IMG/VR virus record: IMGVR_UViG_2802429225_000007
Span: 1 to 31,354 of that record
Length of the DNA: 31,354 bases
Source: a virus
Lineage: Duplodnaviria; Heunggongvirae; Uroviricota; Caudoviricetes
Reading direction: 5' to 3' (one strand)
The notes under the pieces are model-generated. The model saw only the letters and a list, made by a program, of their open reading frames with translations. It searched no databases and was not told the origin of the DNA. Both the position numbers and the translations under genes were made by a program. Below are positions 9,680 to 31,354 of the stretch, one piece after another. Within the stretch, counting starts at the first letter, position 1. Each line of letters begins with the position of its first letter.

Positions 9680-9743
9680 GATGGTGATTTGGAATATCGG
9701 TAATTTTCATTGACGTGATTATAACCCTAGGTTACCATCCAAA

Positions 9744-9763
9744 TACTGTATATTTATACAGTA
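9744..9763 (+). promoter_or_regulatory. LexA (SOS) box overlapping the colicin-like gene promoter
   Basis: TACTGTATATTTATACAGTA, 19/20 to the CTGT-N8-ACAG consensus; candidate -35 TTGACG at 9710-9715 and -10 TACCAT at 9733-9738. Confidence 0.7.
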
Positions 9764-9820
9764 TTTGAAGAGGTGATTATCTAATATCTCTGGGAAATAA
9801 TTATTAAAAGGAAAGTTGAT

Positions 9821-10999: not shown

Positions 11000-11344
11000 T
11001 CATGTGGCCTTTTTTGACAATTGAATATAAATAATAAACAGAAGGCCAATGGGAATTGAAAAAATAAAAAGCATACCGTGGTATAAACCCATTACCCCGC
11101 TTTTTAAACAGGTGTCTGTCCACGCCCCTGTTATCCATGATTCGTATGTTGTATATTTGAGAACGATATTTTCTACAGCTTTCTTTGCATATGGGAACAA
11201 GAAACAGCTAATAACAGCAAGCATAACCAAATACTCCCATATCCATAAATCACCTTCAGCTATGGCCTGATGCCACCTGAAAACTGTCATGGCGAGAAAT
11301 ACGCATCCGTACAGGATGTTGCTCAAATAATATCGAAATGTCAT
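11000..11344 (-). CDS. pore-forming-colicin immunity protein (E1/Ia-type), putative
   Basis: 114-aa protein with ~3 TM segments encoded convergently just downstream of the toxin gene, the canonical arrangement; AT-rich. Confidence 0.6.
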   Translation of the reverse strand: MTFRYYLSNILYGCVFLAMTVFRWHQAIAEGDLWIWEYLVMLAVISCFLFPYAKKAVENIVLKYTTYESWITGAWTDTCLKSGVMGLYHGMLFIFSIPIGLLFIIYIQLSKKAT

Positions 11345-14948: not shown

Positions 14949-16184
14949 TCAGAATTTCCGTTCTTTCCAGCGTTTAACCAACGCGGCCATGTTCAGCGGC
15001 CATAATTTAGGCTCAATCACTTTGCCTTCAAACATCGCGCCGAGCTCAATACCTGGGGCAAAATGTACGGTCATTGTTTCAGGGTTGACGGCCATCAGCT
15101 CTGCGTCTAGTAAGTCGTGTATCGTTGGAGTCAACAACAGGCCATTATCAGCGCTAAAATTGCCTGAGGTAGCTGGCTCAATGTGCGCCGCTTGCAATCG
15201 TTCGCCGTTCTGCCAGCCAGTCACCGCGCAACGGCCAGCAAAATTATTCCATACCCATTCAACAAACTGCATATGCGCCGTCGCGTCGCGCTGCTCAACG
15301 ATGCGCTGCGCGGTTCGGGTACTGTGGAGTTTGACAGGTTGGCCAAGTGCGGGCGCGGGTTTCTCTTCCTCCACGACGACCACTACTTCCTGCGACATGA
15401 TGATTCGATCATCGGCTACCAGTTCCGGAACAACGTCGGCCAGCTTCTCGGCTTCTCGGATGATTTGCTTTTCTTCCTGCTCATCCAGGTACCGCTGCAC
15501 CAGTTCAATGGTCGTGGTGGCTTCATGCTGGTGTTTGTGGATATAAAGCTCAACATCACGACGCTGGCTGGCTGGAATGTGTTTTGCCAGAAAATCCTGT
15601 AGGACGCGATTATCCAGCTTTGTCGTAACTTTTGATGTCATGCTCACAGAATCATACCGTTTCGGTGTTTCCATCTGCGTTGATTGCAGGCCTGGTAATT
15701 CGGTGTTGATTTGAGCGGAAACCTTGCGCGGGATGATTGTCGGCGTAAATGCTGGCGTGCTGGCCTGGGACGTGCCACGGCGACGGGCATTCTCCCAAAG
15801 GGCTTCTGTTTCAGGGTTTTTGCGTGCGCCTGGCTTTTGCATAGGCATAGTGCGAATCAGCGCTTCCCAGCCCATATTGACCTTCTGTTTGGCCTCGCGG
15901 CGTTTATCGGCCAGCGTAGGTTTTGATGGTCGTTTTTTGGAGAGCGCTTTCTCTGGTTTTAACTTGATGCCGCGCGATAAACCATTTATCAGCGTTGGAT
16001 GCACTGATAAGGCTTTGGCCAATTGCAAACCGTTTAAATTGCTGCCATCTGTATAAGCGTACATAAACAAATCCGCCCAGCCATCATGTTGAGGGGTCAT
16101 ACCCACGCTGGTTAAGGCTGCGCGAATCTCTTTTTTGCGAGCTTTGTCCAAGTTAAATTTTTGGGTTTTATTTCGCTTAGTCAT
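14949..16184 (-). CDS. HNH-endonuclease-domain protein with basic N-terminal region
   Basis: C-terminal CAVTGW...AAHIEP...NGLLLTPTIHDLLD resembles an HNH nuclease motif; 411 aa. Confidence 0.55.
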   Translation of the reverse strand: MTKRNKTQKFNLDKARKKEIRAALTSVGMTPQHDGWADLFMYAYTDGSNLNGLQLAKALSVHPTLINGLSRGIKLKPEKALSKKRPSKPTLADKRREAKQKVNMGWEALIRTMPMQKPGARKNPETEALWENARRRGTSQASTPAFTPTIIPRKVSAQINTELPGLQSTQMETPKRYDSVSMTSKVTTKLDNRVLQDFLAKHIPASQRRDVELYIHKHQHEATTTIELVQRYLDEQEEKQIIREAEKLADVVPELVADDRIIMSQEVVVVVEEEKPAPALGQPVKLHSTRTAQRIVEQRDATAHMQFVEWVWNNFAGRCAVTGWQNGERLQAAHIEPATSGNFSADNGLLLTPTIHDLLDAELMAVNPETMTVHFAPGIELGAMFEGKVIEPKLWPLNMAALVKRWKERKF

Positions 16185-16295: not shown

Positions 16296-17120
<825 letters not shown>

Positions 17121-17185
17121 TCAATTGACAACTTATAGTTCCCACTAGTTAGCATTAAGATTTTTACAATGAGGAATAATCAATG

Positions 17186-17242
17186 TCCGCTCCTGGCACA
17201 GAGTGGACGAACAACTGAAGACCCGCTGTGAGCGAGAAACAG
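17186..17242 (+). repeat. ~60-bp palindromic intergenic element, copy A (most diverged)
   Basis: aligns with copies B and C, core CTGAAG-N-CCGCTGTGAGCGAG. Confidence 0.55.
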
Positions 17243-17395
17243 ACATCACAACTCACAAGGATTATACGCAGTTTGTTATCCAAACATACGGGTGCCAAGT
17301 GTTATAATCCGGCACTAACAGCATGATGCTTGGAAGTGCATTTAAATGTAAAATGATAGTGTACTCTGACTGAAGCCTGGTAAAAAGGAACTGAT

Positions 17396-18763
17396 ATGTA
17401 CAACAACCTCTATGCCCTCACAGAAAGCCTTTTCTGGGTTGATCGACTTTTAGATCAGGAATATGAAAATATTGGATTGAATGAATTGCTAATTGAGTTA
17501 GATGAATATAATAAAAGAATAGATTCACTGATTATCGAGCAAGCAAATTCTGTACAGGAGTCTCGGCTAAATGTTTACATGGCGGGAAATCGTAATATTG
17601 AAAGGTATAAGAGTGGACTGTTTTCAATGGACAGAGTCATTCTTGATGATGTTCTGTATTCATTGAGCCTACGATACAGAGTGAGTCTAACAGAAAATGC
17701 ATTTGAAAAAATTATTGTAAGCGATAGAAAAGAGAAGGTTGAACATCTCAGGAAGGAAATTGCTAGATTTATCAGGTTTGCTAAAGAAAACTTTGATCTT
17801 ATCCGTGGTGAGTTTATCGTTTTTGTACGAAGCGAATCTTCTATTAAAGATTCGGAGAGGGGCAATGGAATTTTAGACGATAACTCTGATGCTAATTTTA
17901 TATATCGATATCTCCCTCCTAATATTGCCCGTCTTTATGAAAATAGACTATCCGTAAAGAATATAGAACGTCTAGGTAACACAAATAAAATTCGGTTATT
18001 AAACAAAAATGTTTTATCGAATGAAATTATGTTGGAAATTAAAGACTGTGAAAGTTTATATACAAATGGATATATGTATCAACATATAAAAAATGCCATT
18101 GATAATGATGATGGCTCCATATCTATGGAGCTTGTCATGGGAAATCATAGCGGAAAAAAAAGTTATGAACGGTGGGTGCAGGGAGCAAAAAACCGTACGG
18201 TTCTCTTTCATTATAAAAACCTTATTACTGACCTTAACCAAGCGCATTCATGTAGAGCATCCCTGGGTGCATATTGCCCGTTTCATGGAGAGATTCTTCG
18301 TAAACTTGATCAAAAGAATGAAGTTCAGAGGGTTAAACTCTCTATAGACGTTCCATTCTTAGAGGGACTGACTCCAAGTGAACTCTACAAAATTAGAACT
18401 GACTACGAGCCGAGTTTTAATTCTTTCCGCTCTGTACTACGTGAAGCTGCGTATGATATAGAAGCAGAAAGTGATTCATATAAGAGACAACTAATAAATC
18501 AACATTTTGTCGAGCGGGTGTGGGATGAAGGATTGACAGATATTGAGCAAAAAATACAAGCCTATAAGCGGAAGAGTAAAAAAGAACTTTTTCTTAACAG
18601 TGTGCCTTCATTGATAGGTTTTATTGGTGCACCAAATCCAGTGTCGTTGGCTACAGGAGCTTTTACGATTCTAAAAGATGTCTTTAATATTACAAGCCAT
18701 TCTTCAGAAATAAAGAGCCACCCTTCATATTTCCTTCTCATGATGTCAAAAGCCAAAAAATAA
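17396..18763 (+). CDS. hypothetical protein, AT-rich cargo gene (candidate defence/abortive-infection protein)
   Basis: 455-aa ORF with AAGGA RBS; strongly AT-rich relative to the prophage backbone; no recognised domain, one weak Rx4H motif (NRTVLFH). Confidence 0.6.
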   Translation: MYNNLYALTESLFWVDRLLDQEYENIGLNELLIELDEYNKRIDSLIIEQANSVQESRLNVYMAGNRNIERYKSGLFSMDRVILDDVLYSLSLRYRVSLTENAFEKIIVSDRKEKVEHLRKEIARFIRFAKENFDLIRGEFIVFVRSESSIKDSERGNGILDDNSDANFIYRYLPPNIARLYENRLSVKNIERLGNTNKIRLLNKNVLSNEIMLEIKDCESLYTNGYMYQHIKNAIDNDDGSISMELVMGNHSGKKSYERWVQGAKNRTVLFHYKNLITDLNQAHSCRASLGAYCPFHGEILRKLDQKNEVQRVKLSIDVPFLEGLTPSELYKIRTDYEPSFNSFRSVLREAAYDIEAESDSYKRQLINQHFVERVWDEGLTDIEQKIQAYKRKSKKELFLNSVPSLIGFIGAPNPVSLATGAFTILKDVFNITSHSSEIKSHPSYFLLMMSKAKK

Positions 18764-18890
18764 ACCTTATGACTGAGGCAGTAGAAAATAAAGTGAAAAT
18801 ATATTCACTTAAGAAAAAAAGTTCTAAAGGGACATAATTAGATTAACCCAGTGACCTGTTCCCCTTGAATCAACATAGGCTGTTGTTAGC

Positions 18891-18957
18891 TACTTCCGCT
18901 TCTGACACGAAGCGGACAAAAAACTGAAGGTCCGCTGTGAGCGAGGAGCGGAAGTTG
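18891..18957 (+). repeat. ~60-bp palindromic intergenic element, copy B
   Basis: CTTCCGC...GCGGAAG terminal inverted repeat, internal hairpin CCGCTTC-tgacac-GAAGCGG, 3' core CCGCTGTGAGCGAGGAGCGGAAGTT shared with copy C. Confidence 0.6.
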
Positions 18958-19099
18958 ATTTTATTGAGAGTAAAACAGATCTATAGTAAATGGTCTTGTT
19001 ATGTAGGGGATTTACGATAATTTTACTACCAAGGTCGTTAAAAATTCATATGAAATATCAACGATAGTGACCTATTTTTCATAAGGCCACTATATGAAT

Positions 19100-19762
19100 C
19101 TATTGTTCTATTTTAATTTTATTTAACGTTATAGGGGCTGGGTTATAGCTAGGTATATATAATATCTCACTCCCTAGCTTGCGCTCTTTTATATTCACTT
19201 CTTTAGCGACAAGGTTACCGTCATACAACCTAATAATCACGTAGTCTTTAGATTGATCATGAAAGTAACTAAATTCTTTTTTTAATGACGCTTGTTGTAA
19301 ACCAATTAAGAAACTAAATGTCATTATGGCAATAAGGGGAAGGGTTGCGGACCAAATTAAATAACTTGGATTACGTTTATGATTTTTAACAATTTTGTGT
19401 ATAATATAAGTAACTGTTGCTATCGATAAACTTAAAACGAAAAAACCACCATATTCAGTCTTATGTCTATAAGACTGAACAATAAAAACAATCATGATAA
19501 AAACTGTAACTGCAGTAACTTTAACTGCTTTTACTTTACTTTCAGGCCATGGAGTAAAAAACATCAACATAACACAAATTATATTAAAAAATAAATATGA
19601 CATACCCACGAATAAAAATTTAGAATCTAACGTTATAAACTCCATAGGATAATCAAAATGATATGCATAGCCATATTCAAATGAAATTGCAGACATATAA
19701 GATAGAACAGTTATTGCCAATATTAGCAAGGCTTCCTTGCTTTTTATAAAGTCAATTATCAT
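19100..19762 (-). CDS. polytopic membrane protein, AT-rich cargo gene
   Basis: 220 aa with ~5 hydrophobic helices and a soluble C-terminal tail; very AT-rich; weak RBS. Confidence 0.55.
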   Translation of the reverse strand: MIIDFIKSKEALLILAITVLSYMSAISFEYGYAYHFDYPMEFITLDSKFLFVGMSYLFFNIICVMLMFFTPWPESKVKAVKVTAVTVFIMIVFIVQSYRHKTEYGGFFVLSLSIATVTYIIHKIVKNHKRNPSYLIWSATLPLIAIMTFSFLIGLQQASLKKEFSYFHDQSKDYVIIRLYDGNLVAKEVNIKERKLGSEILYIPSYNPAPITLNKIKIEQ

Positions 19763-20086
19763 GATATTTGTTTTTTAATGAATAAAATAATCACTTACCA
19801 GACAGTTAATCTTCTTAATTGTCATTGTGTTCAGTGAACCCCGAATTTTTCTCAGTTCTTCTGAAGAAGTCCTCATGTATATGATAACAACCAAAAAAAT
19901 TTTTTTCACTAATTATACTAAAATCTATGAAGAATCAGCAGTGTGAAGCAGGGAGAATCTCTAACAAGAGACGCCGTCATTTTGTAAATTTCCCGGCAAA
20001 CCAGATCATCTGCTTTTAGACATAGGATTCAATGTGCTATTACGGCGAGCTGTTCCCACAGATTGATGGAGATAGATGTTAGCAAT

Positions 20087-20157
20087 GCCCGCTTTTGGTA
20101 CGAAGCGGGCAAGCTAACTGAGTTGAAAGTTCGCTGTGAGCGAGGAGCGGAAGTTCG
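20087..20157 (+). repeat. ~60-bp palindromic intergenic element, copy C
   Basis: hairpin GCCCGCTT-ttggtac-GAAGCGGGC plus identical 3' core CGCTGTGAGCGAGGAGCGGAAGTT. Confidence 0.6.
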
Positions 20158-20240
20158 TAATTGTTCTCGCAACTAGGGTAGCTAAAAGACACGGCAGGCA
20201 AATGTCTACATGTAGGATACACTTGCTATTATCAAGAATT

Positions 20241-21019
20241 TTAGTCCTGAAGCATTTTAACTTTCTTCTCATGTTTTTTATATTCGCCATTTATCCATTC
20301 AGGTTCTTCCCGAATAGCTGAGCGCATACAGTATGTTGGGATATCATTCCAGAAAGCTGTAATCGCATCTGCAAACTCTATAAACTGTGTTTCTGTAACC
20401 TCAAGTTGCTCATGACGTAGACTAAATCTGTAGCCTCTTGGAATATTGATATCCTGATAATACTCAGGATGCGCGACGGAAAGCACCCGATGGGCATGGC
20501 CATCACCGTGCTTATAAACATTAACCACTTGGCGACAGGCATCGATTTTTTCGTAATAAGCCTTGCTGGTGATATCCATCCCAATCCATTCTAGAATTTC
20601 AATTAGCCTTGGGAAGCTAATGTCCCAGATCATCGATGTTATGGATTTAGCGTCGAGCCAATGGCTGAATTCTCTGATACACTTCTCTCGAAGTTCCTTG
20701 TCGAACTGATGAAACATTCCTGCTGTCAGAGCAAGGGAAACCGTATTTTTCATATCACTGAGAGCAATCCAATGTGAAATTCCTTCATCATGAGCCTGTT
20801 CACAGATAGCCCCTTCGTCGTCATAATCGGGGTCAAAACGCTTACCGGCGGCCTCATAGTAATCTTGTTCTCTCTGCCTGGCTTCAGCTTCAAGATCAGA
20901 ATCGCTAAACTGCGAAAATAGACGCTTTCTGGCTTCAGCAACATAAAAATTGTGTTTGTCGAGGAAGTAAGACCGATCAATGGTTGCAAAATAAAAAGTG
21001 AAAAATCTTTGTTGCTCAT
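20241..21019 (-). CDS. hypothetical cargo protein (~259 aa if corrected); frame interrupted by a 1-nt deletion in a T5 run near the 5' end
   Basis: ATG 21019 with GAGGGAG RBS; after MSNKD the plausible frame is -1 (…FFTFYFATIDRSYFLDK… continuing in frame into the 170-aa track ORF 20241-20753); A5 run at 21001-21005 on the plus strand. Confidence 0.5.
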
Positions 21020-21424
21020 GGGGATCTCCCTCGTTTTGTCAGTTGTACAAGCCCCTGGAAGTAGGCTACTAATAAAGAAAAAATTACCTTTGAATAACTG
21101 TGCAAGATAGCAGTACGCCTAAAAGTAGTGCAAGTATCCCAACCAGGATAACGATGCGTTTTCAAATATCTGACTTAACGCTTGCGATATCCGCTCTGGC
21201 AACAAAGTGGACTGTCAGATTAAATTTGTCTTCACGCCATAGATGTGTCAGCTCATATCTTATCTAATACACACAAGATTCTCTCATTCTTAGAGAATTA
21301 ATCTTTTAAGGGTGGGTGTTGACGTTAGAACAAAAGAATAGATATTTTTGAAGCATATAATATGAGCTATAACCATAGAACGCATATAAAAGCTTACGGT
21401 GTGGTCTTATAATTTGGCACAAAT

Positions 21425-21449
21425 GATTTACTAACCTGCTTCGGCGGGG
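21425..21449 (+). terminator. candidate intrinsic terminator (UUCG-loop hairpin plus T-run)
   Basis: CCTGC-ttcg-GCGGG followed by GCTTCTTTTTT. Confidence 0.3.
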
Positions 21450-21528
21450 CTTCTTTTTTATAGACTTCACGATGTGAAAACGAATAATAAACTGTGCAAA
21501 TAATGCAGTTTTATTATTCGAGGTAATT

Positions 21529-22170
21529 ATGAAAACCTTCTATGAGGGCTGGCCTGAAACTTTCGTTAGCCGGTTAGATATGTTACGAGCTCTGGATGAT
21601 CGCGGCTCGACCCGGAGGCTCTATCTTGAGCGGACCGGGGCAATATTTGACGCTCTGGCAGAAGAGATACGTACAGCCGTTACCAGTCATCCTGAAATCG
21701 ACGCGAGTGAACTTGATATCGGGCCGCTGTATCGCTATTACAAACATGGTGGAAAGGGGAATCCGCTGGCTGACTTACTTATTGAGTTAGCTCCACCAAC
21801 CTGTGAACGGGTTCGTATATCTTCTGAAGTGTACACAATTCCGTATCTTTTTTTTGCACTGTTGATAGCGCAAGGCGCTGACAACGATGCCCGCGATTTT
21901 TTCAATATGATGATGCGATCGTTGATCATCGCCTACCGTTTCAAACAACTGGCGCGCTACCTTGGCACGAAGGGCGGAGGACGACCACAGCACAGATTAA
22001 AAAGCGAAGCCATTGAACTGGCTGATCGTTTTTTTACTGAAAACCCGACAGCGCCATTATCGCGTGGTGTGCAATACATATCCGGTATTTTTGTGGTGAA
22101 ATACTCTGACCCACCTGCAGCGTCGACGATTAGAAAATGGTTAATTTCAATTTACAGGAATGATAAATAA
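21529..22170 (+). CDS. hypothetical protein
   Basis: 213-aa ORF, backbone-like GC content, no recognised motif. Confidence 0.5.
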   Translation: MKTFYEGWPETFVSRLDMLRALDDRGSTRRLYLERTGAIFDALAEEIRTAVTSHPEIDASELDIGPLYRYYKHGGKGNPLADLLIELAPPTCERVRISSEVYTIPYLFFALLIAQGADNDARDFFNMMMRSLIIAYRFKQLARYLGTKGGGRPQHRLKSEAIELADRFFTENPTAPLSRGVQYISGIFVVKYSDPPAASTIRKWLISIYRNDK

Positions 22171-22281
22171 TGACCATAAACGGTTTAATCCCCTATAAAA
22201 CCGTTTAGTAAAATTCACGACGTGAATATAATTGTTCATTATTCCCTCATTGTATTTGGCGTTATGACAAATGCCATAAAA

Positions 22282-22301
22282 TACTGTATAAATGTACAGG
22301 T
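22282..22301 (+). promoter_or_regulatory. LexA (SOS) box-like operator upstream of a small ORF
   Basis: TACTGTATAAATGTACAGGT: CTGT-N8-ACAG core intact, ~16/20 to consensus; sits ~20 nt upstream of ATG 22322. Confidence 0.55.
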
Positions 22302-22321
22302 AATGGCGTTAGGGGGAAGAC

Positions 22322-22501
22322 ATGAATATTCAAGAATCTATAGGCGAACTACCGGAAACATGCCGGGCTGTTATCAAGCGTAAGGACGGACACATCGTTG
22401 GTGTGCGTGTTCTGACCGATGATGAACGGATTGCCAGCCTGATGGCGTTTCTCGAGTTGGCAGAAATAGCTGGATATACTATTACACCCCCTGACGCGTA
22501 A
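22322..22501 (+). CDS. small SOS-controlled protein, candidate antirepressor
   Basis: 59-aa ORF (MNIQESIGELPETCRAVIKRKDGHIVGVRVLTDDERIASLMAFLELAEIAGYTITPPDA) with GGGGGAAG RBS; below the track's 60-aa cutoff. Confidence 0.45.
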   Translation: MNIQESIGELPETCRAVIKRKDGHIVGVRVLTDDERIASLMAFLELAEIAGYTITPPDA

Positions 22502-22578
22502 AACACGGTATAATACTGGTGCTGGATTGAACACCCGGCACCATTTTCTGAACACTGCCGCGCCACCTGGAGTTAACC

Positions 22579-23175
22579 ATGGCGCAGCATTCATTTATCA
22601 GGGTATCCGGCGGTTCGCTAATACCCGCGACACCAGACACGCAACGCTGGTTGACTGAACGAGTCAAACCAGGTGCTGTTGTGTATGCAGATTTCAAACA
22701 GGCGCGTAATCCCGCGTTTCATCGTAAATTTTTCTCACTTCTCAACTTGGGCTTTGATTACTGGCATCCGTCCGGAGGGGCTATTTCTCCTGCGGAGCGC
22801 GAACTGGTTCACGGCTACGTTAAGTTACTGGCGTATTACGGTGGACACGGTGATGTCATGGCAGAGCTGGCTGATCAGTATCTTCTCGATGAGTCGGAAA
22901 AGCGCGCGGGGAATATCAGTGCGGTGAAGTCGTTCGAGGCGTTTCGCGCCTGGGCGATTATGGAAGCTGGGTTTTATGACGTTCATCAGATGCCAGATGG
23001 CAGTTTGATGCGCGTACCTCGTTCAATCTCGTTTGCTGCGATGGACGATCTTGAGTTCGGTCAACTGTATTCAGCCGTTTTAGATGTGCTGTGGAATTAT
23101 ATTTTGTTCCGCACGTTTGCCTCTCAGGAGGCCGCTGAAAATGCTGCCGCGCAGCTGCTGGATTACACATCATGA
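22579..23175 (+). CDS. conserved lambdoid nin-region protein (DUF-type), putative
   Basis: 198-aa ORF in the block preceding the Q-like gene; family from memory only. Confidence 0.45.
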   Translation: MAQHSFIRVSGGSLIPATPDTQRWLTERVKPGAVVYADFKQARNPAFHRKFFSLLNLGFDYWHPSGGAISPAERELVHGYVKLLAYYGGHGDVMAELADQYLLDESEKRAGNISAVKSFEAFRAWAIMEAGFYDVHQMPDGSLMRVPRSISFAAMDDLEFGQLYSAVLDVLWNYILFRTFASQEAAENAAAQLLDYTS

Positions 23176-23465
23176 AAAAAATCGATCTGAGAAAAGCTGC
23201 ACGTGGTCGCGCTTGTACTGTGCGTATCCCCGGTGTGTGCAATCACAATCCTGAAACCAGCGTACTGGCTCATTATCGTCTCGCCGGAACGTGCGGCACA
23301 GCCATCAAACCTCACGATATGCAGGGTGCTATCGCCTGCAGTGCGTGTCACGATGCCATCGACGGACGTACAAAAACGGATTACGAGCACGACTCATTGT
23401 TGTTGATGCACGCTGAGGGAGTTTTCAGAACACTGGCTATCTGGCGCGATGAGGAGTTTATCTGA
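23172..23465 (+). CDS. small Cys-rich (zinc-binding-like) nin-region protein
   Basis: 97 aa with CxxxxxxC...C...CxxC pattern; overlapping start/stop with neighbours. Confidence 0.45.
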   Translation: MKKIDLRKAARGRACTVRIPGVCNHNPETSVLAHYRLAGTCGTAIKPHDMQGAIACSACHDAIDGRTKTDYEHDSLLLMHAEGVFRTLAIWRDEEFI

Positions 23466-24136
23466 TGAGTAACGAGTATTTATTGGAATATACCCGCACA
23501 AAACTGCGCGCTGCATTGCGGGATTTGTCTGGTGGTTCTAAGGGGCAACTGGAAGCATTGTGTGAGCACCCGCCGGCAGATAAAAACGCATACCCACGCA
23601 AACATATTCATCGTGTGCAACTGGAGGACCGAACCGTTGATGCTCTGGTTACGCCAGTTTATGCTCTGGAAAGTTTCAGCAGACGTCGCCCCGCGCCGCC
23701 GATGAATGATTTTGAATTCGCTGATTCATCGTGGCGCCGCGCCGTGAACTCGCTCGACGTTAGTCAGCAGGCGTGGTTGCGCTATTGCTACGGTGGTAAC
23801 CTGGCGTTCAAACACCAAACAGCTATTTGTGAGGCTGTCTGGAGTCGCTATAAAGGAAACATCCCCGCGTCAACTCAGAGAAAAATAGTCAAGCGCCTGC
23901 TTTCGTTGGTGTGGTTGTCCGTGCAGGCGGTTGCAGCAGCAAATAAACGCGAGGATTTTAAGGAGATGGCCGGATCTGCGCTAGCTGGAATGCTGTCGGT
24001 TTCTCGTTCCACCTGGTGCGAAACATACTCCCCGCACTGGGTAGGAATGAAAGAGGCGGTGAGAGCACTTGATGAAGTGGCACTTCTTGCAACTTTGCAT
24101 CATTATCAGAACCATTTAGACGACGTTTGCGTATAA
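23465..24136 (+). CDS. late-gene antitermination protein Q-like, putative
   Basis: 223-aa ORF immediately upstream of a promoter plus short terminator and the lysis genes; assignment mainly positional. Confidence 0.5.
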   Translation: MSNEYLLEYTRTKLRAALRDLSGGSKGQLEALCEHPPADKNAYPRKHIHRVQLEDRTVDALVTPVYALESFSRRRPAPPMNDFEFADSSWRRAVNSLDVSQQAWLRYCYGGNLAFKHQTAICEAVWSRYKGNIPASTQRKIVKRLLSLVWLSVQAVAAANKREDFKEMAGSALAGMLSVSRSTWCETYSPHWVGMKEAVRALDEVALLATLHHYQNHLDDVCV

Positions 24137-24204
24137 TGCTTGCAAAACCGAACAAAATAGGCCATATTTAACGCTAATTTGGTATGTTGCCAAATATCTA
24201 AGAA

Positions 24205-24231
24205 CCTCGCCACGGCGGGGTTTTGTCGTTT
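24205..24231 (+). terminator. candidate tR'-like terminator downstream of the late promoter
   Basis: GC-rich hairpin CTCGCC...GGCGGG followed by TTTTGTCGTTT; candidate promoter TTGCAA / CATATT at ~24139-24170. Confidence 0.4.
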
Positions 24232-24248
24232 CTGAATCAGGAAAAATC

Positions 24249-24632
24249 ATGTCTGAACCTCTAACCGCTGGCGTTGCTGCTGGCTCGGCGGGGGTGACGT
24301 TTGCTGCGTTATTTCCTGAGGCAACACCTGCAGTGATGATCTGTGCGCTGGCAGGCGCAGCTCTCTATGTGTCGTCGTCCGGGCAGCATCGATTCTGGAA
24401 GCAGGTTATTTTCGCACTCATTTCGTTTGTTGGCGGTGTGTATTGCGCTGAGACAGCATCAGCCATCATTACCGGTATTCTGAATGCGATGCTGAGTCAC
24501 CTGAACCCTCCCGTAACAGTAAAAGTCTCTCCCGCCATTGGTGCACTGGTTGCATCAGTAATCAGCGTTACATCACTGTTGCGGATCATGTCACAAGCTC
24601 GTTTATGGAAATCAGATAAGGGGATGAAATAA
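24249..24632 (+). CDS. holin-like membrane protein
   Basis: 127 aa, multiple hydrophobic helices, charged C-terminus; first gene after the late promoter. Confidence 0.5.
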   Translation: MSEPLTAGVAAGSAGVTFAALFPEATPAVMICALAGAALYVSSSGQHRFWKQVIFALISFVGGVYCAETASAIITGILNAMLSHLNPPVTVKVSPAIGALVASVISVTSLLRIMSQARLWKSDKGMK

Positions 24633-24904
24633 TGACCCTGCACTCTGTCCTCATCAATGCCAATGCAATTATCTGTCTGATGCTGGCACTGCGGTTGATG
24701 TTTTTTCAAAAAACAGGCCGCTATCGTTTTTTTATCTCACTAACTGCTTACCTGGCGATTCTGTCTGCTGCGTGGATAGCCCTACGAATTTTTTACGGGA
24801 AATATACGCAGGTTGATCCCGCAGAGTTCTTTCTCAACCTCACCATCTGTATTGCTGTCTGGCGGGCACGAGGAAATATTTCAAAAATAACAGGAGACAG
24901 GTAA
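24632..24904 (+). CDS. second small membrane protein of the lysis cassette (holin/antiholin-like)
   Basis: 90 aa, ~3 TM helices; ATGA overlap with the upstream gene. Confidence 0.45.
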   Translation: MTLHSVLINANAIICLMLALRLMFFQKTGRYRFFISLTAYLAILSAAWIALRIFYGKYTQVDPAEFFLNLTICIAVWRARGNISKITGDR

Positions 24905-25383
24905 TGACCGATCCTAAATGGCTAATTGAGGCACGAAAAAATCTCGGCATCCGGGAAATGAAAGGGAAGCAACATGCTGCAGAAATTGTGCAGTACTGGA
25001 AAGATATCAAACGCGGCGGCATTAAGGATGACGAAACACCATGGTGCGCCGCCTTCACCGGAGCAATGCTGGAACGTGTTGGTATTCGCTCAACGCGTTT
25101 TGAGTCTGCGAATTCTTATCTCGATTGGGGTAATGAACTGAAGGAACCTGCCTATGGATGCATTGCTATTCTGTCTCGGTCTGGCGGTGGCCACGTTGGT
25201 TTTGTTGTCGGGAAAAATGCCGCCGGGGATTTAATGATTTTGGGGGGCAACCAGGCAGATGAAGTAAATATCAAAGCTTTTCCTCGTTCCCGCGTAACAG
25301 GCTACCGCTGGCCAGCAGGTCAAACGGATGTTCCACAATCACTTCCATTCGTGAATGCTGAGAAATCTATCTCAGAAGCGTAG
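24904..25383 (+). CDS. endolysin, Cys/His peptidase-type peptidoglycan hydrolase (NlpC/P60-CHAP-like), putative
   Basis: conserved Cys (ETPWCAAFTGAM) and His (GGGHVGFVVG) context typical of small phage peptidoglycan hydrolases; position after the holins. Confidence 0.55.
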   Translation: MTDPKWLIEARKNLGIREMKGKQHAAEIVQYWKDIKRGGIKDDETPWCAAFTGAMLERVGIRSTRFESANSYLDWGNELKEPAYGCIAILSRSGGGHVGFVVGKNAAGDLMILGGNQADEVNIKAFPRSRVTGYRWPAGQTDVPQSLPFVNAEKSISEA

Positions 25384-25576
25384 GTAGCACGGAGCTAAGG
25401 GTTATTGTGGGTAATGAAGTAGTTATTTATGAACGTTCCGATTTTAGTCGATGGAATGGATCGCATTATCGCGTTGCAATTGCTGAGGGGCTAGTGGGTT
25501 GATTCCTCAAACGAACGAAGAAATGAATTATCAATCCATCTAAAGCCCCTCCAGCTTTGAAGGTTGCTAGTGGTGA

Positions 25577-25870
25577 CTAGTAGCCCGGATAGAGGTTTTC
25601 GAAAATGTGCAAGGGATGTTTTGTACGAGCATAATCAGCAAGGATTTGGTTTGTTAAAGGCGTCTTGAGTGTTGTGGGTTCTCTTAAGAGATCGATGGCA
25701 TCAAGACGCCTGTGCGCATCGCCTTCCAAGTAATTTATCGTAATGGCCGTGATTAAAAAATCATTGCAAAAACCACCGCAATGAATTTTCCAGCACGTAT
25801 CGTGATTTGTCCACGTGGCATCAGAGCCGCATACAGGGCAATTTTTTGATTCCTGCAAACCAATAACCAT
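25577..25870 (-). CDS. Cys-rich hypothetical protein, opposite strand to late genes
   Basis: 97-aa ORF with CPVCG...C..HCGGFC zinc-finger-like pattern. Confidence 0.35.
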   Translation of the reverse strand: MVIGLQESKNCPVCGSDATWTNHDTCWKIHCGGFCNDFLITAITINYLEGDAHRRLDAIDLLREPTTLKTPLTNQILADYARTKHPLHIFENLYPGY

Positions 25871-25952
25871 AGAGCATTTCTCTTAATTGAATGTTCGAGT
25901 TAAAAGCATAGACGACACCTGTGCACCATGAGAATACAGTAGGATTTAATTA

Positions 25953-26556
25953 TATGAGCAAAGCGGACTGGGAGGCCATCGAGACGGCATACCGGGCCGG
26001 AGTGATGTCCCTTCGAGAAATAGCATCACAAAACGGTATTAGCGAAGGCGCTATTCGTAAGCGGGCCAAGCGTGACGACTGGTCGCGTGACCTGAATGCG
26101 AAGGTGAAAGAACGCGCTGACGATCTGGTACGCAAAGCAGAGGTACGCAAACAGGTACGCAGCGAAGTTACTTTTAACGAACGCGTACTCATCGAGGCTA
26201 CCGCCGAGATAATCGCCAATGTTCGCATGGAACATCGCGGCGACATCAAGCGAGCCAGGCAGATAACCAATGCCCTGTTTGATGAGCTTGGTGCTGAGGG
26301 CGCAGACGTAGCTGCACTGGAGAAGCTCGGAGAGTTGATGCTTGACTCTGACGATAAAGGCCAGGACAAACTCAATGAGATCTACCGCAAGGTTATCAGC
26401 ATGCCGGAGCGTGTTAAGTCGCTAAAAGCACTGAGCGACGCGCTGAAGAACCTGGTCGGACTTGAACGCCAGGCCTACGATATCGACGGGCCAGAAGGCG
26501 ACAACTCTGTTAAGCAACTGTCTGACCTGATGGATTCACTGTCTCAGGGGGCGTAA
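25953..26556 (+). CDS. terminase small subunit
   Basis: HTH-like N-terminus (MSLREIASQNGISEGAIRKRAKRDDW); AGGA RBS before ATG 25953; ATGA overlap with the large-subunit gene. Confidence 0.6.
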
Positions 26557-27940
26557 TGAAACCTGAGCACCTTAAGTTGCTGTCCGATAAAAACTGGCGG
26601 CTGAACAATCTCTACTGGATCACCGACAAAGAGGGTAAGCCGACGCGGTTCAGGATGACACCTGAGCAGCGGGAATACTTCGAGGGGATCCACACCCGCA
26701 ACATCATTCTTAAGGCTCGTCAGCTCGGATTCACGACCGAGGTGTGCATCATCCAGCTCGATGCAGCGCTGTTCGAGTCGGCAAAGTGCGCGCTTATTGC
26801 CCACACGCTGAATGACGCAAAACGCCTGTTCCGTGAAAAGGTGAAGTACGCATACGACAAGCTGCCAGCAGAGATAACGGCGGCCAACCCGGCGAGCAAT
26901 GATTCTTCCGGAGAGCTCGTCTTTAAGAAGGGCGGATCACTCTACGTCAGTACGTCATTTCGTGGCGGTACGCTGCGTTACCTGCACGTTTCCGAGTTCG
27001 GGAAGATATGCGCCAAGTATCCTGACAAAGCCCGTGAAATTGTCACTGGTGCGTTTGAGGCAGTGTCAACCGGATGCTTTGCGACTATTGAGAGCACGGC
27101 GGAAGGGCGGGCGGGGTATTTCTTCGATTACTGCCAGACGGCAGAGAAGGCGCTGCTGCAGGGCAAAGCACAGTCTCCGCTGGACTGGAAGTTTTTCTTC
27201 TTCCCCTGGTGGAAGAACCCACAGTACGCAATCGACCCGGTGGAATCGCTGCCGGTGCGCCTGCTTGAGTATTTCGCTGAAATGGAGGCGAAGCACGGTG
27301 TAGTCGTCAACGAACGTCAGCAAGCTTGGTACTACGCCAAGCAATTCCGCTGGCTCTATACTAACAAGCGTATCGGACATATCCCGGATAACTCACACCT
27401 GCCGGTACACACATTCTGGGATATAGGCGTAGGTGACTCCACGGCTATCTGGTTCGTTCGCGAGGTTGGTGAAGAGTTCCACATCATCGACTACTACGAA
27501 AACTCTGGCGAGGGGCTGAGGCACTAAAGGTGCTAAAAGACCGAGGCTACGAGTATGGCGAGCATTGGGGGCCGCACGATATCGAGAACCGCGAGTTTGC
27601 TGCTGATGCGAAGTCACGTAAGGAGCTGGCGCGCGAGGGTTACGAAATAGACGGTCAGAACTATTCCCTTGAATTCAACGTAGTGCCAAAAACCAGCGTC
27701 GACACTGGTATTGAATCAGTTCGTGAAGTGCTCCTATTTTGCATTTTCGACGAAGAGAAGTGTGCTGTTGGCATATCTCACCTTGAAGGTTACCGCAAAG
27801 AGTGGGACGACAAGCGAGGCTGCTGGAAAGATAAACCGCTTCATGACTTTACATCTCACGGCGCTGATGGCTTTCGTTACTTTGCCGTCGCAAAAAATAA
27901 CAAGATTGCTCATCAGGGCATGCTGGTCCGTTCCCGCTAA
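26556..27940 (+). CDS. terminase large subunit, reading frame interrupted (-1) at a G4 run 27512-27515
   Basis: Walker-A-like KARQLGFTTE; track ORFs 26556-27527 and 27530-27940 are contiguous parts; one extra G restores ...EGAEALKVLKDRGYEYGEHW... Confidence 0.7.
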
Positions 27941-27954
27941 TTTCTGGAGTACCC

Positions 27955-29372
27955 ATGAACAAAGAACAACTGGCGGCAACGCAGCGTCAGGCGCGTTCAA
28001 TGGAATGTGCACGCGCAAACAACCTCGACTTCCGTTTTTACGGAACCAGTAACACTAAGCGCAAAACCCTGTACAGAGAGTTCGGTTACCCCGAAGTATT
28101 AGGGTTTGATGATTTTTATCGCGCATATAAGCGAAATGCAGTTGCGCGTGCTGCTGTCCGTCGTGTCATTGATAACTGTTGGCAGGACAACCCCGAAATA
28201 TTTGAGGGGGGGGGGAGAAAGAGGACGGCGCGAAAAAGGACAGCGCGTGGGATAAGCGCGTTAATAAATTATTTAAAAAGTTGTGGAAACAAATTAAAGG
28301 CGCGGATCGTCGAAACCTCGTAGGCAATTGTTCCGCGCTGCTGATTCAACTAAAAGATGGTGGTAAGTGGCATGCTCCTGTTAATACCACAACGGTAAGG
28401 TCGTTGCAGGAAAAGGCGCTTGTGCGTCTTATCCCAGTATGGGAAGCGCAGCTGGACGTTTCTCAGTGGAATAACGACCCGGACAGTGACACGTTCGGGA
28501 TGCCGAAAATGTACCAGTTCACGGAAATGCCTGTCGGCAGTGAGAGTGGCAGGCCAGGACGCATCATTGATGTTCACCCGGATCGCGTTTTTATTCTGGC
28601 TGAGGGCGCTGATGATGACGGTATGGATGGTGAGTCCATGCTGGAGGCGGGATTCAATAAATTATTGGATATTGAAAAAATCTCCGGTGGCAGCGCCGAA
28701 GGCTTTCTGAAGAATGCCAGCCGCCAGCTTAATTTCAATTTCAGCGCCAAAACCAACTTTTCCCAACTTGCCCGCGCCCTTGGCGTCTCTGAGTCTGAAT
28801 TATCTGATGCTATGGATGAACAGACCCGCAGACTAAATAACAACACGGATAGCGCAGTGATGATGCAAGAGGGTGATACCAGCGTCCTTTCCGTCGCCGC
28901 AGCAGATCCAGAGCCAACATGGCGAACGGCGCTTAATGAGTTTTGCGCCACAATCCCGGTTCCCGTGAAAATTCTTATCGGTATGCAGACAGGTGAACGC
29001 GCCAGTACCGAGGACATGAAAGACTGGGCGAAAACCGGTAATGCACGCCGCGCAGGTTTTCTGACAGATGTCATTGAGGGGGTTGTGCGGTGGTTTATCC
29101 ATCTCGAAATAATTCCCGCCCCCAGCGAAGAAGAGATCACGATCCACTGGAGTGACCTGCTTGCTCCTGGGCAGGTCGAAAAAATCGACAACATGAACAA
29201 AATGGCAGACGTGGCAGTGAAAACCACTAACGCGTTTGGTCGTGCGGCAATAACTGAAAATGAAATTCGTTCTGTTGGTGAGTTCCCGCCACTGAAAGAA
29301 TTTGAAGAGGAAAATGATGACGACCAGCCAAAGCAGACTGATCCTCTGGTCGGTTCAGAGGGAGACGCGTAA
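27955..29372 (+). CDS. portal protein, putative, reading frame interrupted at a G10 run 28206-28215
   Basis: track ORFs 27955-28323 and 28281-29372 are parts of one gene; G11 would give ...EGGGEKEDGAKKDSAWDKRVNKLFKKLWKQ...; position after terminase. Confidence 0.55.
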
Positions 29373-30333
29373 AAGTCCGGTAATACCACGGTCACGCACC
29401 GATCCTACCTTGTCACGAAATGCCGTGAAGAGAATGGCTGGCGATATTGAGAATCGCTATTTCGCCATAAAAAACGCACTGAAAAACCAGCTTGATATGC
29501 TCCTGCAAGGGCATTCTGCTGCGACAAACAGCCAACCATGGCACTTCCTTTGTCATGACGTGGATGATTCTTCAATGCTGTACCGGGTTAACGCGAGCAC
29601 CTACGTTTGCGACATGTCTGGACGGCAGTTGGCAGGCCTGTTACAGATTGTGCAGATGATATTGGATGACTATCTACTGGAGGGGGGCTCGCATAATATC
29701 TGGGCGATGTCGTATGTGGTGGCGGAGTTCAAACGTGGAACTCACCAGGCTTACAACAGCCTTTCTCAGCAGTCCTCTGTTTACGCCAGCCAGACGACCT
29801 TTCCGCAGTTGTTAAGTATGCCTGCATATCAAAACCAGATTGCGGCTGCGTATGTTTCAACTTACAGCGACTGGAAGGGCATTGCTGATACGGCGCGTGT
29901 GGATCTCGCCAGTATTATTGCCAACGGCATAGGTCGGGGTGTTAACCCGAGAGACCTGGCTAGTACTATCAGCAAACGTCTTGATGTATCGAAGGCGAAA
30001 GCAAAATCTATTGCCCAGACGGAACAGGTTGGTGCTCTACGCGAAGCACTGTGGAATGAAGCCGACTGGGCGTCGTCAAGGCTTGGCCTGAATACCGGCC
30101 TGTTGTGGTTGTCTACGCTCAAGCCGACGACTCGTGCCTGGCACGCCGGTCGTCACGGTAAGGGCTATACCACTAAAGATGTGAGGGAATTCTACGCTGA
30201 GAACGGAAATCGGTACAACTGCTACTGTAGTCAGATACCGGTACTGCTCAATGACGACGGCAGTATCTTCAATGAAGGACTGACAGATAAGTTGACAACT
30301 GAACGCAAGCAGTGGAAACATGATTCTAATTAG
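29302..30333 (+). CDS. head morphogenesis protein (Mu F / SPP1 gp7-like), putative
   Basis: 343-aa ORF following the portal gene; alternative starts at 29314/29317. Confidence 0.5.
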   Translation: MKRKMMTTSQSRLILWSVQRETRKSPVIPRSRTDPTLSRNAVKRMAGDIENRYFAIKNALKNQLDMLLQGHSAATNSQPWHFLCHDVDDSSMLYRVNASTYVCDMSGRQLAGLLQIVQMILDDYLLEGGSHNIWAMSYVVAEFKRGTHQAYNSLSQQSSVYASQTTFPQLLSMPAYQNQIAAAYVSTYSDWKGIADTARVDLASIIANGIGRGVNPRDLASTISKRLDVSKAKAKSIAQTEQVGALREALWNEADWASSRLGLNTGLLWLSTLKPTTRAWHAGRHGKGYTTKDVREFYAENGNRYNCYCSQIPVLLNDDGSIFNEGLTDKLTTERKQWKHDSN

Positions 30334-30370
30334 TGCTAAATAACATCATCATAGTTTTCATGGTATTAAG

Positions 30371-30886
30371 TTGATGAGTATTACACCTCAGGAAGTTGGT
30401 TCATATATTCTATCCCTTATTGGTCAGATAACTATTGGGGGGGTGGTGGCTTGGTTTACTGCACGTTTCGCTTTAAGGCGCTTCCACAGTGAAAAGTGGT
30501 GGGAGAAGAAACATAAAGCTTATGGGGATCTTATAGATATCCTTATAGAGATGAAAGCTATATACCTCGCAGCGTCAAACCATCATGAAAGAATACATAT
30601 AGCTGAGCAAAGGTTGTCTGAAGTTCCTGATTATTATTTCGACTGGAGTCAATTTAAGGTTTTAAAGAAGCAATTGAGGCGCTTGTATGTCTTGGCTCCA
30701 ATATCTTTGAGTGAAATAACTAAAGAGCACTTAACTTGGTTTTTTTCATTAGACGCTAATGCTGATGAGATGATACATGAGGAAAATTATCCAGAGCAGG
30801 CTGCTTATAACGATATGGCTCTTGAGGTAGACAACCTGATTGAACTGATTGTGGATGATGCTAAGCATGAGCTTAACTTTAAGTGA
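30371..30886 (+). CDS. AT-rich moron protein with N-terminal TM helix
   Basis: 171 aa; hydrophobic segment IGQITIGGVVAWFTARF; AT-rich; followed by a strong terminator. Confidence 0.55.
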   Translation: MMSITPQEVGSYILSLIGQITIGGVVAWFTARFALRRFHSEKWWEKKHKAYGDLIDILIEMKAIYLAASNHHERIHIAEQRLSEVPDYYFDWSQFKVLKKQLRRLYVLAPISLSEITKEHLTWFFSLDANADEMIHEENYPEQAAYNDMALEVDNLIELIVDDAKHELNFK

Positions 30887-30902
30887 GTCTAATAGAACTA
30901 TG

Positions 30903-30924
30903 AACCCGCTTCGGCGGGTTTTTT
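30903..30924 (+). terminator. rho-independent terminator
   Basis: AACCCGC-ttcg-GCGGGTT followed by TTTTTT. Confidence 0.7.
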
Positions 30925-30955
30925 ATTGACCAAAATCCATCAAAGAGGACCCAGC

Positions 30956-31354
30956 ATGAAACGCAACCGCGTTAACGTGCTGACGGTTATCAACTCCGCT
31001 TCAAATATCACAACTGAAACCATCGACGGACGCGAGCACATTGTCGTGCACGGCGTCGTGCCTATCGTTGACGATATTGTGATGAATCGGCGTTTTTATC
31101 CGTCAGCCGAAATTCAGAAATCCTATAACACTCTCGAACGTAACCCCATGCCACTGGATCACCCGGTGATTGATGGGGAAAACGTATCTGCCAGCGATCC
31201 GCGCGCCGTGAATAACTATCACGTAGGGGCGTGGTTTCAGAATGCTCGCCATGAAAACGGACGCGTCATCGGAGATATGTACGTTGATCGCCGTTATGCG
31301 GAGAACAGCGAGAAGGGTAAGCGCCTGGTTGTGTCAACGACGGATGAAAAGTGA
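30956..31354 (+). CDS. phage head-module protein (possibly protease/scaffold-related)
   Basis: AAAGAGGAC RBS before ATG 30956 (track start 30926 probably too early); stop at window end; function by position only. Confidence 0.35.
   Translation: MKRNRVNVLTVINSASNITTETIDGREHIVVHGVVPIVDDIVMNRRFYPSAEIQKSYNTLERNPMPLDHPVIDGENVSASDPRAVNNYHVGAWFQNARHENGRVIGDMYVDRRYAENSEKGKRLVVSTTDEK

What the first reader, a model, noticed from the sequence alone, without database searches (positions are those of the whole stretch)
26556..27940. Terminase large-subunit gene split by a single-base deletion in a G run
Seen: ORFs 26556-27527 and 27530-27940 are adjacent frames of one terminase; inserting one G in GGGG (27512-27515) gives a continuous ...YYENSGEGAEALKVLKDRGYEYGEHW... 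Together with three other homopolymer-associated frameshifts in this window, the simplest explanation is indel sequencing error; otherwise the prophage cannot package DNA.
Basis: seen in the sequence. Interest (0 to 1): 0.5.

Follow-up and report, generated by a model that had tools for sequence, protein, structure and literature searches.

The report
Terminase pseudogene in decaying prophage
The phage DNA-packaging (large terminase) gene is split, but by a 4-base deletion (TATG) outside any base run and not by a lost G, and it lies in a prophage carrying three other damaging lesions, so this is ordinary prophage decay and probably not a sequencing error.

Summary
The proposed lesion is wrong. 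The GGGG run at 27512-27515 is identical in intact relatives. Sister loci that are nearly identical (1 SNP in 14.8 kb) read CACTA-TATG-AAGG where the window reads CACTA-AAGG. The lesion is therefore a 4-bp TATG deletion between 27526 and 27527. Re-inserting TATG gives a 462-aa protein 100% identical to an Escherichia marmotae terminase.

The deletion is not in a homopolymer. It also appears in a second, independently built assembly (Logan, SRR3987709).

The same prophage copy carries three more lesions:
- An IS100 insertion in a head gene (from 31332).
- A G10-versus-G11 frameshift in the portal gene, shared with other assemblies.
- A 93-bp in-frame deletion between 12-bp direct repeats. It removes 31 nearly invariant terminase residues.

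The best explanation is a genuine, very recent pseudogenising deletion in an already defective lambdoid prophage. Sequencing error is unlikely but is not formally excluded without the raw reads. Interest is low.

The parts
25954..26556 (+). Small terminase subunit gene (200 aa), immediately upstream. Its stop overlaps the terL start codon.
   Evidence: phrog_1206 'terminase small subunit', E 1.3e-89. Gene call in L003 at 9399-10001.
26556..27527 (+). Large terminase (TerL) 5' fragment, 323 aa. It holds the ATPase domain and the first three predicted strands of the nuclease domain, and ends at a premature TAA (27525-27527) created by the frameshift.
   Evidence: Identical to residues 1-323 of the intact 462-aa P0003.
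27329..27340 (+). Single remaining copy of the 12-bp repeat GTACTACGCCAA. It marks a 93-bp in-frame deletion that removes 31 aa (YYAKEKTLGDDMKREYPTIPAEAFQQSVEGA) found in full-length 490-498 aa homologues.
   Evidence: Alignment with L001 and L002. The segment is nearly invariant in 18 of 18 full-length homologues. Deletion-junction pattern: 0 hits in IMG/VR and 0 in GTDB species representatives. Full-length junction: at least 120 and 66 hits.
27512..27515 (+). It is unchanged from intact relatives and is not the lesion.
27526..27527 (+). Junction of the 4-bp deletion. Sisters read CACTA-TATG-AAGG and the window reads CACTA-AAGG. This is the actual frameshift.
   Evidence: Three-way alignment with L005 and L006, sister sequence, and repair test giving 100% identity to P0003. 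The same junction is in Logan contig L008.
27530..27940 (+). TerL 3' fragment (136-aa ORF from a fortuitous GTG), carrying the remainder of the nuclease domain. It is in the -1 frame relative to the 5' fragment.
   Evidence: Identical to residues 327-462 of P0003.
27955..29372 (+). Portal gene, split into 27955-28323 and 28281-29372.
   Evidence: Pfam Phage_portal_3. phrog_146 'portal protein' for the intact 472-aa L005 version.
28206..28215 (+). G10 tract in the portal gene. G11 gives the intact frame (L005). G10 is found in the window and L006, and a complete E. marmotae genome encodes the identical 363-aa portal fragment.
30956..31331 (+). 5' part (about 125 codons) of a head-morphogenesis gene that is 390 aa in the sister loci. 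Here it is cut off by an insertion sequence.
   Evidence: phrog_760, with a weak match to head maturation protease.
31332..31354 (.). Terminal bases of IS100 (IS21 family). The element continues to the contig end, 89 bases past the window.
   Evidence: L003:14777-14888 is 100% identical to IS100 copies in thousands of E. coli records. The sisters are uninterrupted here.

Best explanation
The window is part of a lambdoid prophage on contig PTSR01000004.1 of assembly GCA_002965345.1, most likely from Escherichia marmotae. Its large-terminase gene (terL) is a genuine pseudogene. A 4-bp deletion (TATG, between 27526 and 27527) shifts the frame by -1. It creates a TAA stop after residue 323 and leaves the last 139 codons out of frame.

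The break falls inside the RNase-H-like nuclease domain, in the predicted helix that follows the first three strands. Neither fragment could therefore form an active nuclease, and no ATPase-nuclease motor can be made.

The mutation is very recent. A sister copy differs otherwise by a single SNP in 14.8 kb. It arose in a prophage that was already disabled, so nothing selected against it. The earlier lesions are:
- A portal gene frameshifted at a G10/G11 tract.
- A terL allele that already lacked 31 nearly invariant residues, through a 93-bp deletion between 12-bp direct repeats.
- In this strain only, an IS100 insertion in a head gene.

Shown: the lesions, their distribution among sister copies, and the terminase identity. 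Inferred: that the deletion is biological and not an artefact, the order of events, and the loss of function.
For: Identity of the gene:
- phrog_2 'terminase large subunit', E 4e-41 for the full-length homologue and 3.8e-32 for ORF1.
- The AlphaFold model of the 490-aa homologue hits T4 gp17 (E 1.9e-12), D6E, T7, Sf6 and P74-26 terminases, and P22, SPP1 and RB49 nuclease domains.
- Synteny: small terminase upstream, portal downstream.

The lesion:
- Window against L006: 1 mismatch plus one 4-bp gap over 14,780 bp. Against L005: 45 mismatches plus the 4-bp and a 1-bp gap.
- The sister sequence reads ggcactaTATGaaggtg.
- Inserting TATG gives a product 100% identical to the 462-aa P0003, which is named E. 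marmotae terminase and is found on 8 contigs.
- The G run is identical in all intact relatives.

Reproducibility: the same 323-aa and 136-aa ORFs are on a 32.7-kb Logan contig from SRR3987709. The 611 bp fetched from that contig, which span the junction, are an exact substring of the window.

Decay context:
- IS100 end at 31332, 100% identical to E. coli copies.
- Portal G10 against G11, with the identical 363-aa fragment annotated in a complete 4.7-Mb genome.
- The 93-bp deletion is flanked by GTACTACGCCAA repeats in homologues.
- The deleted segment is nearly invariant.
- The deletion allele is absent from IMG/VR and from GTDB representatives, while the full-length junction is found at least 120 and 66 times.
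- All other listed family members but one (482 aa) are 490-498 aa.
Against: - No raw reads were inspected.
- I could not establish whether SRR3987709 is an independent isolate or the read set behind the GenBank assembly. If it is the same read set, the second assembly rules out an assembler artefact but not a systematic read-level or library artefact.
- The sequencing platform is unknown.
- Loss of function of the 462-aa 'intact' allele is inferred from conservation only. The AlphaFold model is of low confidence in that segment (pLDDT below 50 for residues 261-306).
- The organism assignment rests on the names of identical or near-identical proteins, not on host genes.
Confidence: 0.85

Rival explanations
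1. Sequencing or assembly error. The strain really carries the intact 462-aa terL, and the 4-bp gap is an artefact of reads or consensus.
For: The window does contain one classic error-prone site, the portal G10 tract. The deletion is private to this strain's data: 2 contigs carry the split gene against 8 with the intact allele. The two assemblies may derive from the same reads.
Against: The site is not a homopolymer or a simple repeat, and the loss is 4 bases. An independently built k-mer assembly (Logan) gives the identical junction. The rest of the 14.8 kb differs from the sister copy by one SNP, so the assembly is not generally indel-ridden. The portal G10 state is itself reproduced in other runs and in a complete genome. 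Unambiguous real damage, the IS100 insertion, lies 3.8 kb away.
Confidence: 0.1
2. The split is functional. Full-length TerL would be made by programmed -1 ribosomal frameshifting or transcriptional slippage, or the two fragments would work together as a two-piece terminase.
For: A -1 shift anywhere between 27473 and the stop at 27525 would join the two frames.
Against: All close and distant relatives encode a single uninterrupted ORF. I found no X_XXY_YYZ slippery heptamer in the 27473-27527 overlap by reading the sequence. The break point lies inside the nuclease fold and not at a domain boundary. The split is confined to one strain.
Confidence: 0.02
3. The codon 323/324 region is a mutational or recombinational hot spot, or truncation there is selected. 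An unrelated metagenomic contig (L004) also ends its terminase ORF at ...EGLRH*.
For: In L004, TAC is changed to TAG at the same codon, and homology to terL stops about 4 bases later. A Scandinavium prophage has an 11-bp frameshifting deletion about 45 bp upstream.
Against: The three lesions differ in kind and exact position. The Scandinavium case was found through a cluster of similar-length C-terminal ORFs, which is ascertainment bias. L004 is a single metagenomic assembly and could be chimeric. No repeat, palindrome or microhomology flanks the TATG deletion.
Confidence: 0.03

Closest known systems
Large terminase subunit (TerL) of tailed phages, e.g. T4 gp17, Sf6 gp2, D6E TerL; nearest sequenced relatives are Klebsiella phage 2b LV-2017 / KO-TP1 TerL and E. 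coli prophage terminase WP_033817226.1
   Same: Same gene position (terS-terL-portal). About 87% nucleotide identity to the Klebsiella and E. coli copies. PHROG terminase match. Terminase fold hits for the 490-aa homologue.
   Different: The window's copy is broken by a 4-bp deletion and lacks 31 conserved residues that all full-length relatives keep. No Pfam family and no PDB sequence match was detected for this TerL lineage.
Cryptic or defective prophages of enterobacteria (e.g. E. coli K-12 DLP12, Rac, Qin), which decay through small deletions, IS insertions and frameshifts
   Same: Several independent inactivating lesions in morphogenesis genes of one integrated lambdoid element: an IS insertion, a homopolymer frameshift, a direct-repeat deletion and a small deletion.
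   Different: This decay is at an early stage. Gene order and most ORFs are still intact, and sister strains carry progressively fewer lesions. That nesting lets the order of events be inferred.
RecA-independent deletion between short direct repeats (replication slippage). This comparison is from general knowledge and was not tested here.
   Same: The 93-bp deletion is bounded in homologues by two copies of the 12-bp repeat GTACTACGCCAA, and one copy remains in the window.
   Different: This applies to the older 93-bp lesion only. The TATG deletion that causes the frameshift has no flanking repeat.

Membership tests
Large terminase subunit (TerL) | Significant sequence match to curated terminase-large-subunit profiles | tested here: met
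   phrog_2 'terminase large subunit': E 4.3e-41 (490-aa homologue), 3.3e-38 (P0003), 3.8e-32 (window ORF1). ORF2 matches phrog_6672 terminase at E 6.3e-05. Pfam-A gave no hit.
Large terminase subunit (TerL) | Two-domain fold: N-terminal ASCE ATPase plus C-terminal RNase-H-like nuclease | tested here: met
   The AlphaFold model of the 490-aa homologue P0026 (mean pLDDT 64) hits T4 gp17 full length (E 1.9e-12), D6E, T7 and Sf6 terminases, the P74-26 ATPase domain, and P22, RB49 and SPP1 nuclease domains. The model is moderate and global TM scores are low (about 0.3).
Large terminase subunit (TerL) | Genomic position between the small terminase and portal genes | tested here: met
   terS (phrog_1206, E 1.3e-89) ends where terL starts. 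The portal gene (Phage_portal_3 / phrog_146) starts 15 bp after terL.
Large terminase subunit (TerL) | Single uninterrupted ORF encoding both domains, needed for a functional member | tested here: not met
   There is a premature stop at 27525-27527 after residue 323, and the remainder is in the -1 frame. It is therefore filed as a TerL pseudogene, not a functional member.
Homopolymer indel sequencing error | A 1-base length change inside a mononucleotide run, relative to true relatives | tested here: not met
   The GGGG run is unchanged. The lesion is a 4-bp TATG loss in non-repetitive sequence.
Homopolymer indel sequencing error | Not reproducible in independent data or assemblies | tested here: inconclusive
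   The identical junction is in the Logan assembly of SRR3987709. Whether that run is independent of the GenBank assembly's reads could not be determined (searches found no paper).
Programmed -1 ribosomal frameshift | The two-frame arrangement is conserved among homologues | tested here: not met
   All 20 aligned family members and the sister loci have one continuous ORF.
Programmed -1 ribosomal frameshift | Slippery heptamer in the overlap of the two frames | tested here: not met
   I read the overlap 27473-27527 and found no X_XXY_YYZ motif. I did not test for a downstream stimulatory structure.

The most novel reading that the evidence does not exclude
Truncation of this TerL exactly after ...EGLRH (residue 323) may not be random. 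An unrelated metagenomic prophage remnant (L004) ends its terminase ORF at the same codon through a different lesion. Two readings follow. One is a local mutational or recombinational hot spot around CAC-TAY-ATG-A. The other is selection for a retained fragment consisting of the ATPase domain with a partial nuclease domain, for example as a decoy or an interfering protein. A separate possibility is that the 31-aa-deleted 462-aa allele is a still-functional minimal variant.
Probability: 0.04. Interest if true: 0.4.

Novelty: already known. Interest (0 to 1): 0.1.

Why it matters
This matters mainly as a correction and an annotation call. The gene should be annotated as a terL pseudogene caused by a 4-bp deletion, not 'repaired' by adding a G, which would create a protein that never existed. 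The prophage should be scored as defective.

The nested series of sister copies gives a small, clean snapshot of early prophage decay, in which indels and IS insertions outpace point mutations (1 SNP in 14.8 kb):
1. All lesions absent except the 93-bp deletion.
2. Plus the portal G10 frameshift.
3. Plus the TATG deletion and the IS100 insertion.

Nothing here challenges current understanding.

Tried and rejected
- Pfam on both fragments, on the intact 462-aa allele and on the 490-aa allele: no family matched.
- PDB by sequence, with a single protein and with a 20-sequence profile: no hit. Terminase identity therefore rests on PHROGs and the fold search.
- Literature search for the assembly and run accessions (PTSR..., GCA_002965345, SRR3987709, ERR12509513, ERR11019294): nothing found. 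Strain identity, platform and independence of the runs remain unknown.
- Hot-spot idea. I examined other database ORFs that start at the same Met (MKVLKD...). Scandinavium L009 has an 11-bp deletion about 45 bp upstream. ENA L010 is a scaffold gap of Ns. Neither shares the lesion, and both were found through length-biased clustering. Only L004 remains an unexplained coincidence.
- Different 3' end as a possible third lesion. The window's C-terminus...NNKIAHQGMLVRSR, differs from the E. coli and Klebsiella copies. It resembles a natural Morganella variant (...NKKSHSGMLVRKR) and is present in the intact P0003, so it is not a lesion.
- Programmed frameshifting and a two-piece enzyme: rejected for lack of conservation, lack of a slippery site, and a break point inside the fold.
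- tRNA scan of the window: none found.

Full report
**Observation**

The window carries two adjacent ORFs, 26556-27527 (323 aa) and 27530-27940 (136 aa, from a GTG). The second is in the -1 frame relative to the first. They are parts of one gene.
- On phrog_2472, ORF1's best stretch covers profile positions 10-91 and ORF2 covers positions 188-312.
- ORF1 also matches phrog_26724 and phrog_2, 'terminase large subunit', at E 3.8e-32.

The run GGGG is at 27512-27515. Adding a G there does give an open 461-codon frame reading ...EGAEALKVLKDRGY....

**What the lesion really is**

I compared the gene with intact relatives: the E. coli GB089 prophage and Klebsiella phage 2b, both 1473 nt and 490 aa, at about 87% nucleotide identity. 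GAGGGGCT is unchanged in them, and the window is 88 nt shorter overall, not 1 nt.

An exact-protein look-up placed the window on NCBI assembly GCA_002965345.1, contig PTSR01000004.1. It also recovered sister copies of the same prophage from other sequencing runs.
- L006 (ERR12509513) differs from window 16556-31331 by one mismatch and one 4-bp gap.
- L005 (ERR11019294) differs by 45 mismatches, the same 4-bp gap and a 1-bp gap.

At the gap the sisters read ggcacta-TATG-aaggtg and the window reads ggcacta-aaggtg. No other 4-base deletion converts the sister sequence into the window sequence.

Inserting TATG between 27526 and 27527 gives a 462-aa product 100% identical to P0003. P0003 is WP_115775271.1, named terminase of Escherichia marmotae, and it is encoded on 8 contigs. 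The true ancestral reading is ...EGLRHYMKVLKDRGY.... In a 20-member family alignment R, H and Y are invariant, and L and M are conserved in at least 90% of members.

**Is it an error?**

The site is not a homopolymer or a simple repeat, and four bases are missing. The same split pair of ORFs lies on a 32.7-kb contig that Logan built independently from run SRR3987709. The 611 bp fetched from that contig, spanning the junction, are an exact substring of the window. The rest of the 14.8 kb is nearly identical to L006, so the assembly is not generally riddled with indels.

I could not find out whether SRR3987709 is the read set behind the GenBank assembly. The second assembly therefore excludes an assembler artefact but not, strictly, a read-level one. 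I put the probability of a sequencing error at about 0.1.

**Context: a prophage already in decay**

The whole window is lambdoid prophage. It encodes Gp157, a DnaB-like helicase, a colicin-pore-domain protein, antiterminator Q, holins and a lysis enzyme, terS, terL, portal, a Mu-F-like head protein and further head genes. Besides the TATG deletion there are three more lesions.

1. **IS100 insertion.** From 31332 the window stops matching its sisters. It continues, with 89 more bases of the contig, as the end of IS100 (IS21 family), 100% identical to thousands of E. coli copies. The insertion interrupts a head gene that is 390 aa in L005 and L006. This is an unambiguous real mutation, private to this strain.

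2. **Portal frameshift.** The portal gene is split at a G tract, G10 at 28206-28215. L005 has G11 and an intact 472-aa portal. L006 has the same 1-bp deletion as the window. A complete 4.7-Mb E. marmotae genome encodes the identical 363-aa portal fragment (XSA40533.1) together with the intact 462-aa terminase (XSA40535.1), so it shares the portal frameshift.

3. **93-bp in-frame deletion in terL.** Even the 'intact' 462-aa allele lacks 93 bp (31 aa, YYAKEKTLGDDMKREYPTIPAEAFQQSVEGA) relative to the family.
   - In homologues the missing block is bounded by two copies of GTACTACGCCAA. One copy remains at 27329-27340.
   - The segment is nearly invariant in 18 of 18 full-length homologues from many genera.
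   - Apart from the deletion-allele representative P0002 (460 aa) and one 482-aa entry, all listed family members are 490-498 aa.
   - A degenerate pattern for the deletion junction (AWYYAKQFRW) finds nothing in IMG/VR or in 185,579 species-representative genomes. The full-length junction (AWYYAKEKT) finds at least 120 and 66 loci.

The deletion allele is therefore rare and is probably itself crippled. That last step is inference from conservation, because the structure model is unreliable in that segment.

**Structural placement**

An AlphaFold model of the 490-aa homologue P0026 has mean pLDDT 64. Its fold-search hits are T4 gp17 (E 1.9e-12), the PhiV-1, D6E, T7 and Sf6 terminases, the P74-26 ATPase domain, and the P22, RB49 and SPP1 nuclease domains.

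In the model the nuclease domain begins with three strands (residues 315-348), followed by a helix (351-362). The frameshift falls at residues 354-356 of that numbering, inside the helix. It separates the strand carrying the first conserved acidic cluster (WDIGVGD) from the rest (…HWGPHD…, …SHGADGFRY). Assigning these as catalytic residues is my reading from general knowledge of TerL nucleases and was not tested. Neither fragment should be an active nuclease.

**Most likely history (inferred)**

1. The 93-bp repeat-mediated deletion came first. It is shared by all E. marmotae copies and by a few Enterobacter and metagenomic alleles.
2. The portal G11-to-G10 slip followed. It is shared by L006, the complete genome and the window.
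3. The TATG deletion and the IS100 insertion came last, in this strain only.

With packaging already impossible, the TATG deletion was neutral. The lineage accumulated one SNP while gaining an IS and an indel.

**Rivals**

- Programmed -1 frameshifting or a two-piece enzyme is rejected. The split is not conserved, the overlap (27473-27527) has no slippery heptamer, and the break is inside a fold.
- One loose end remains. A metagenomic contig (L004) ends its terminase ORF at the same codon through a TAC-to-TAG change, and its homology to terL stops about 4 bases later.
- Other same-start C-terminal ORFs turned out to have different causes: an 11-bp deletion 45 bp upstream in Scandinavium, and a scaffold gap.
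- I regard the L004 match as coincidence and give about 0.03-0.04 to a hot-spot or selected-truncation reading.

**Verdict**

The split is real, the lesion was mis-located, and the error hypothesis is not supported. This is a terminase pseudogene in a defective prophage, a well-known kind of thing and of low interest.

Noticed in passing
window 28206-28215 (portal gene 27955-29372): A G10 tract splits the portal gene. The sister copy L005 has G11 and an intact 472-aa portal, while L006 and a complete E. marmotae genome share the G10 frameshift. Homologues in E. coli GB089 and Klebsiella phage 2b have no long G run here (GGCGACGACGG / GGTGACGAAGC). The tract is therefore lineage-specific and length-variable. 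It behaves like a slippage-prone on/off tract.
   Followed up: partly
window 31332-31354, continuing in L003:14777-14888: The end of IS100 (IS21 family, 100% identical to E. coli copies) is inserted in a head-morphogenesis gene that is 390 aa in the sister loci. The contig ends inside the IS.
   Followed up: yes
window 27329-27340: There is a 93-bp in-frame deletion of a nearly invariant 31-aa TerL segment, formed between two 12-bp direct repeats (GTACTACGCCAA). The same deletion occurs in alleles named Enterobacter hormaechei (460 aa) and in ENA and JGI contigs. Those alleles differ by about 5% in protein sequence. This suggests either recurrent slippage or spread of one allele.
   Followed up: partly
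L004:3960-3980 (JGI metagenome 3300048924): An unrelated prophage remnant truncates the same terminase at the identical codon (...EGLRH, TAC changed to TAG). It then switches to unrelated sequence within about 4 bases of the window's deletion site. This coincidence is unexplained.
   Followed up: partly
window 9821-10972 (+) and 11000-11344 (-): A 383-aa protein with a colicin pore-forming domain (Pfam PF01024, E 3.5e-45) is encoded inside the prophage. A 114-aa ORF lies on the opposite strand just downstream. That is where pore-forming colicin immunity genes usually lie (from general knowledge). This may be bacteriocin cargo.
   Followed up: no
window 28281-29372 / protein P0022: NCBI names this portal fragment and its full-length relatives 'anti-CBASS protein Acb1 family protein' or DUF1073. 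Pfam (Phage_portal_3) and PHROGs (phrog_146) identify it as the portal. The name looks misleading.
   Followed up: no
L009:2454 (Scandinavium goeteborgense, SRR8450027): The homologous terminase in another genus is independently frameshifted by an 11-bp deletion. This suggests that terL pseudogenes of this family are not rare in enterobacterial prophages.
   Followed up: partly
window 14949-16184 (-) and 16296-17099 (-): A 411-aa protein with an HNH_2 endonuclease domain lies next to a GIY-YIG (LEM-3-like) protein, in the middle of the prophage between the early and late regions. They may be defence or homing-nuclease cargo.
   Followed up: no
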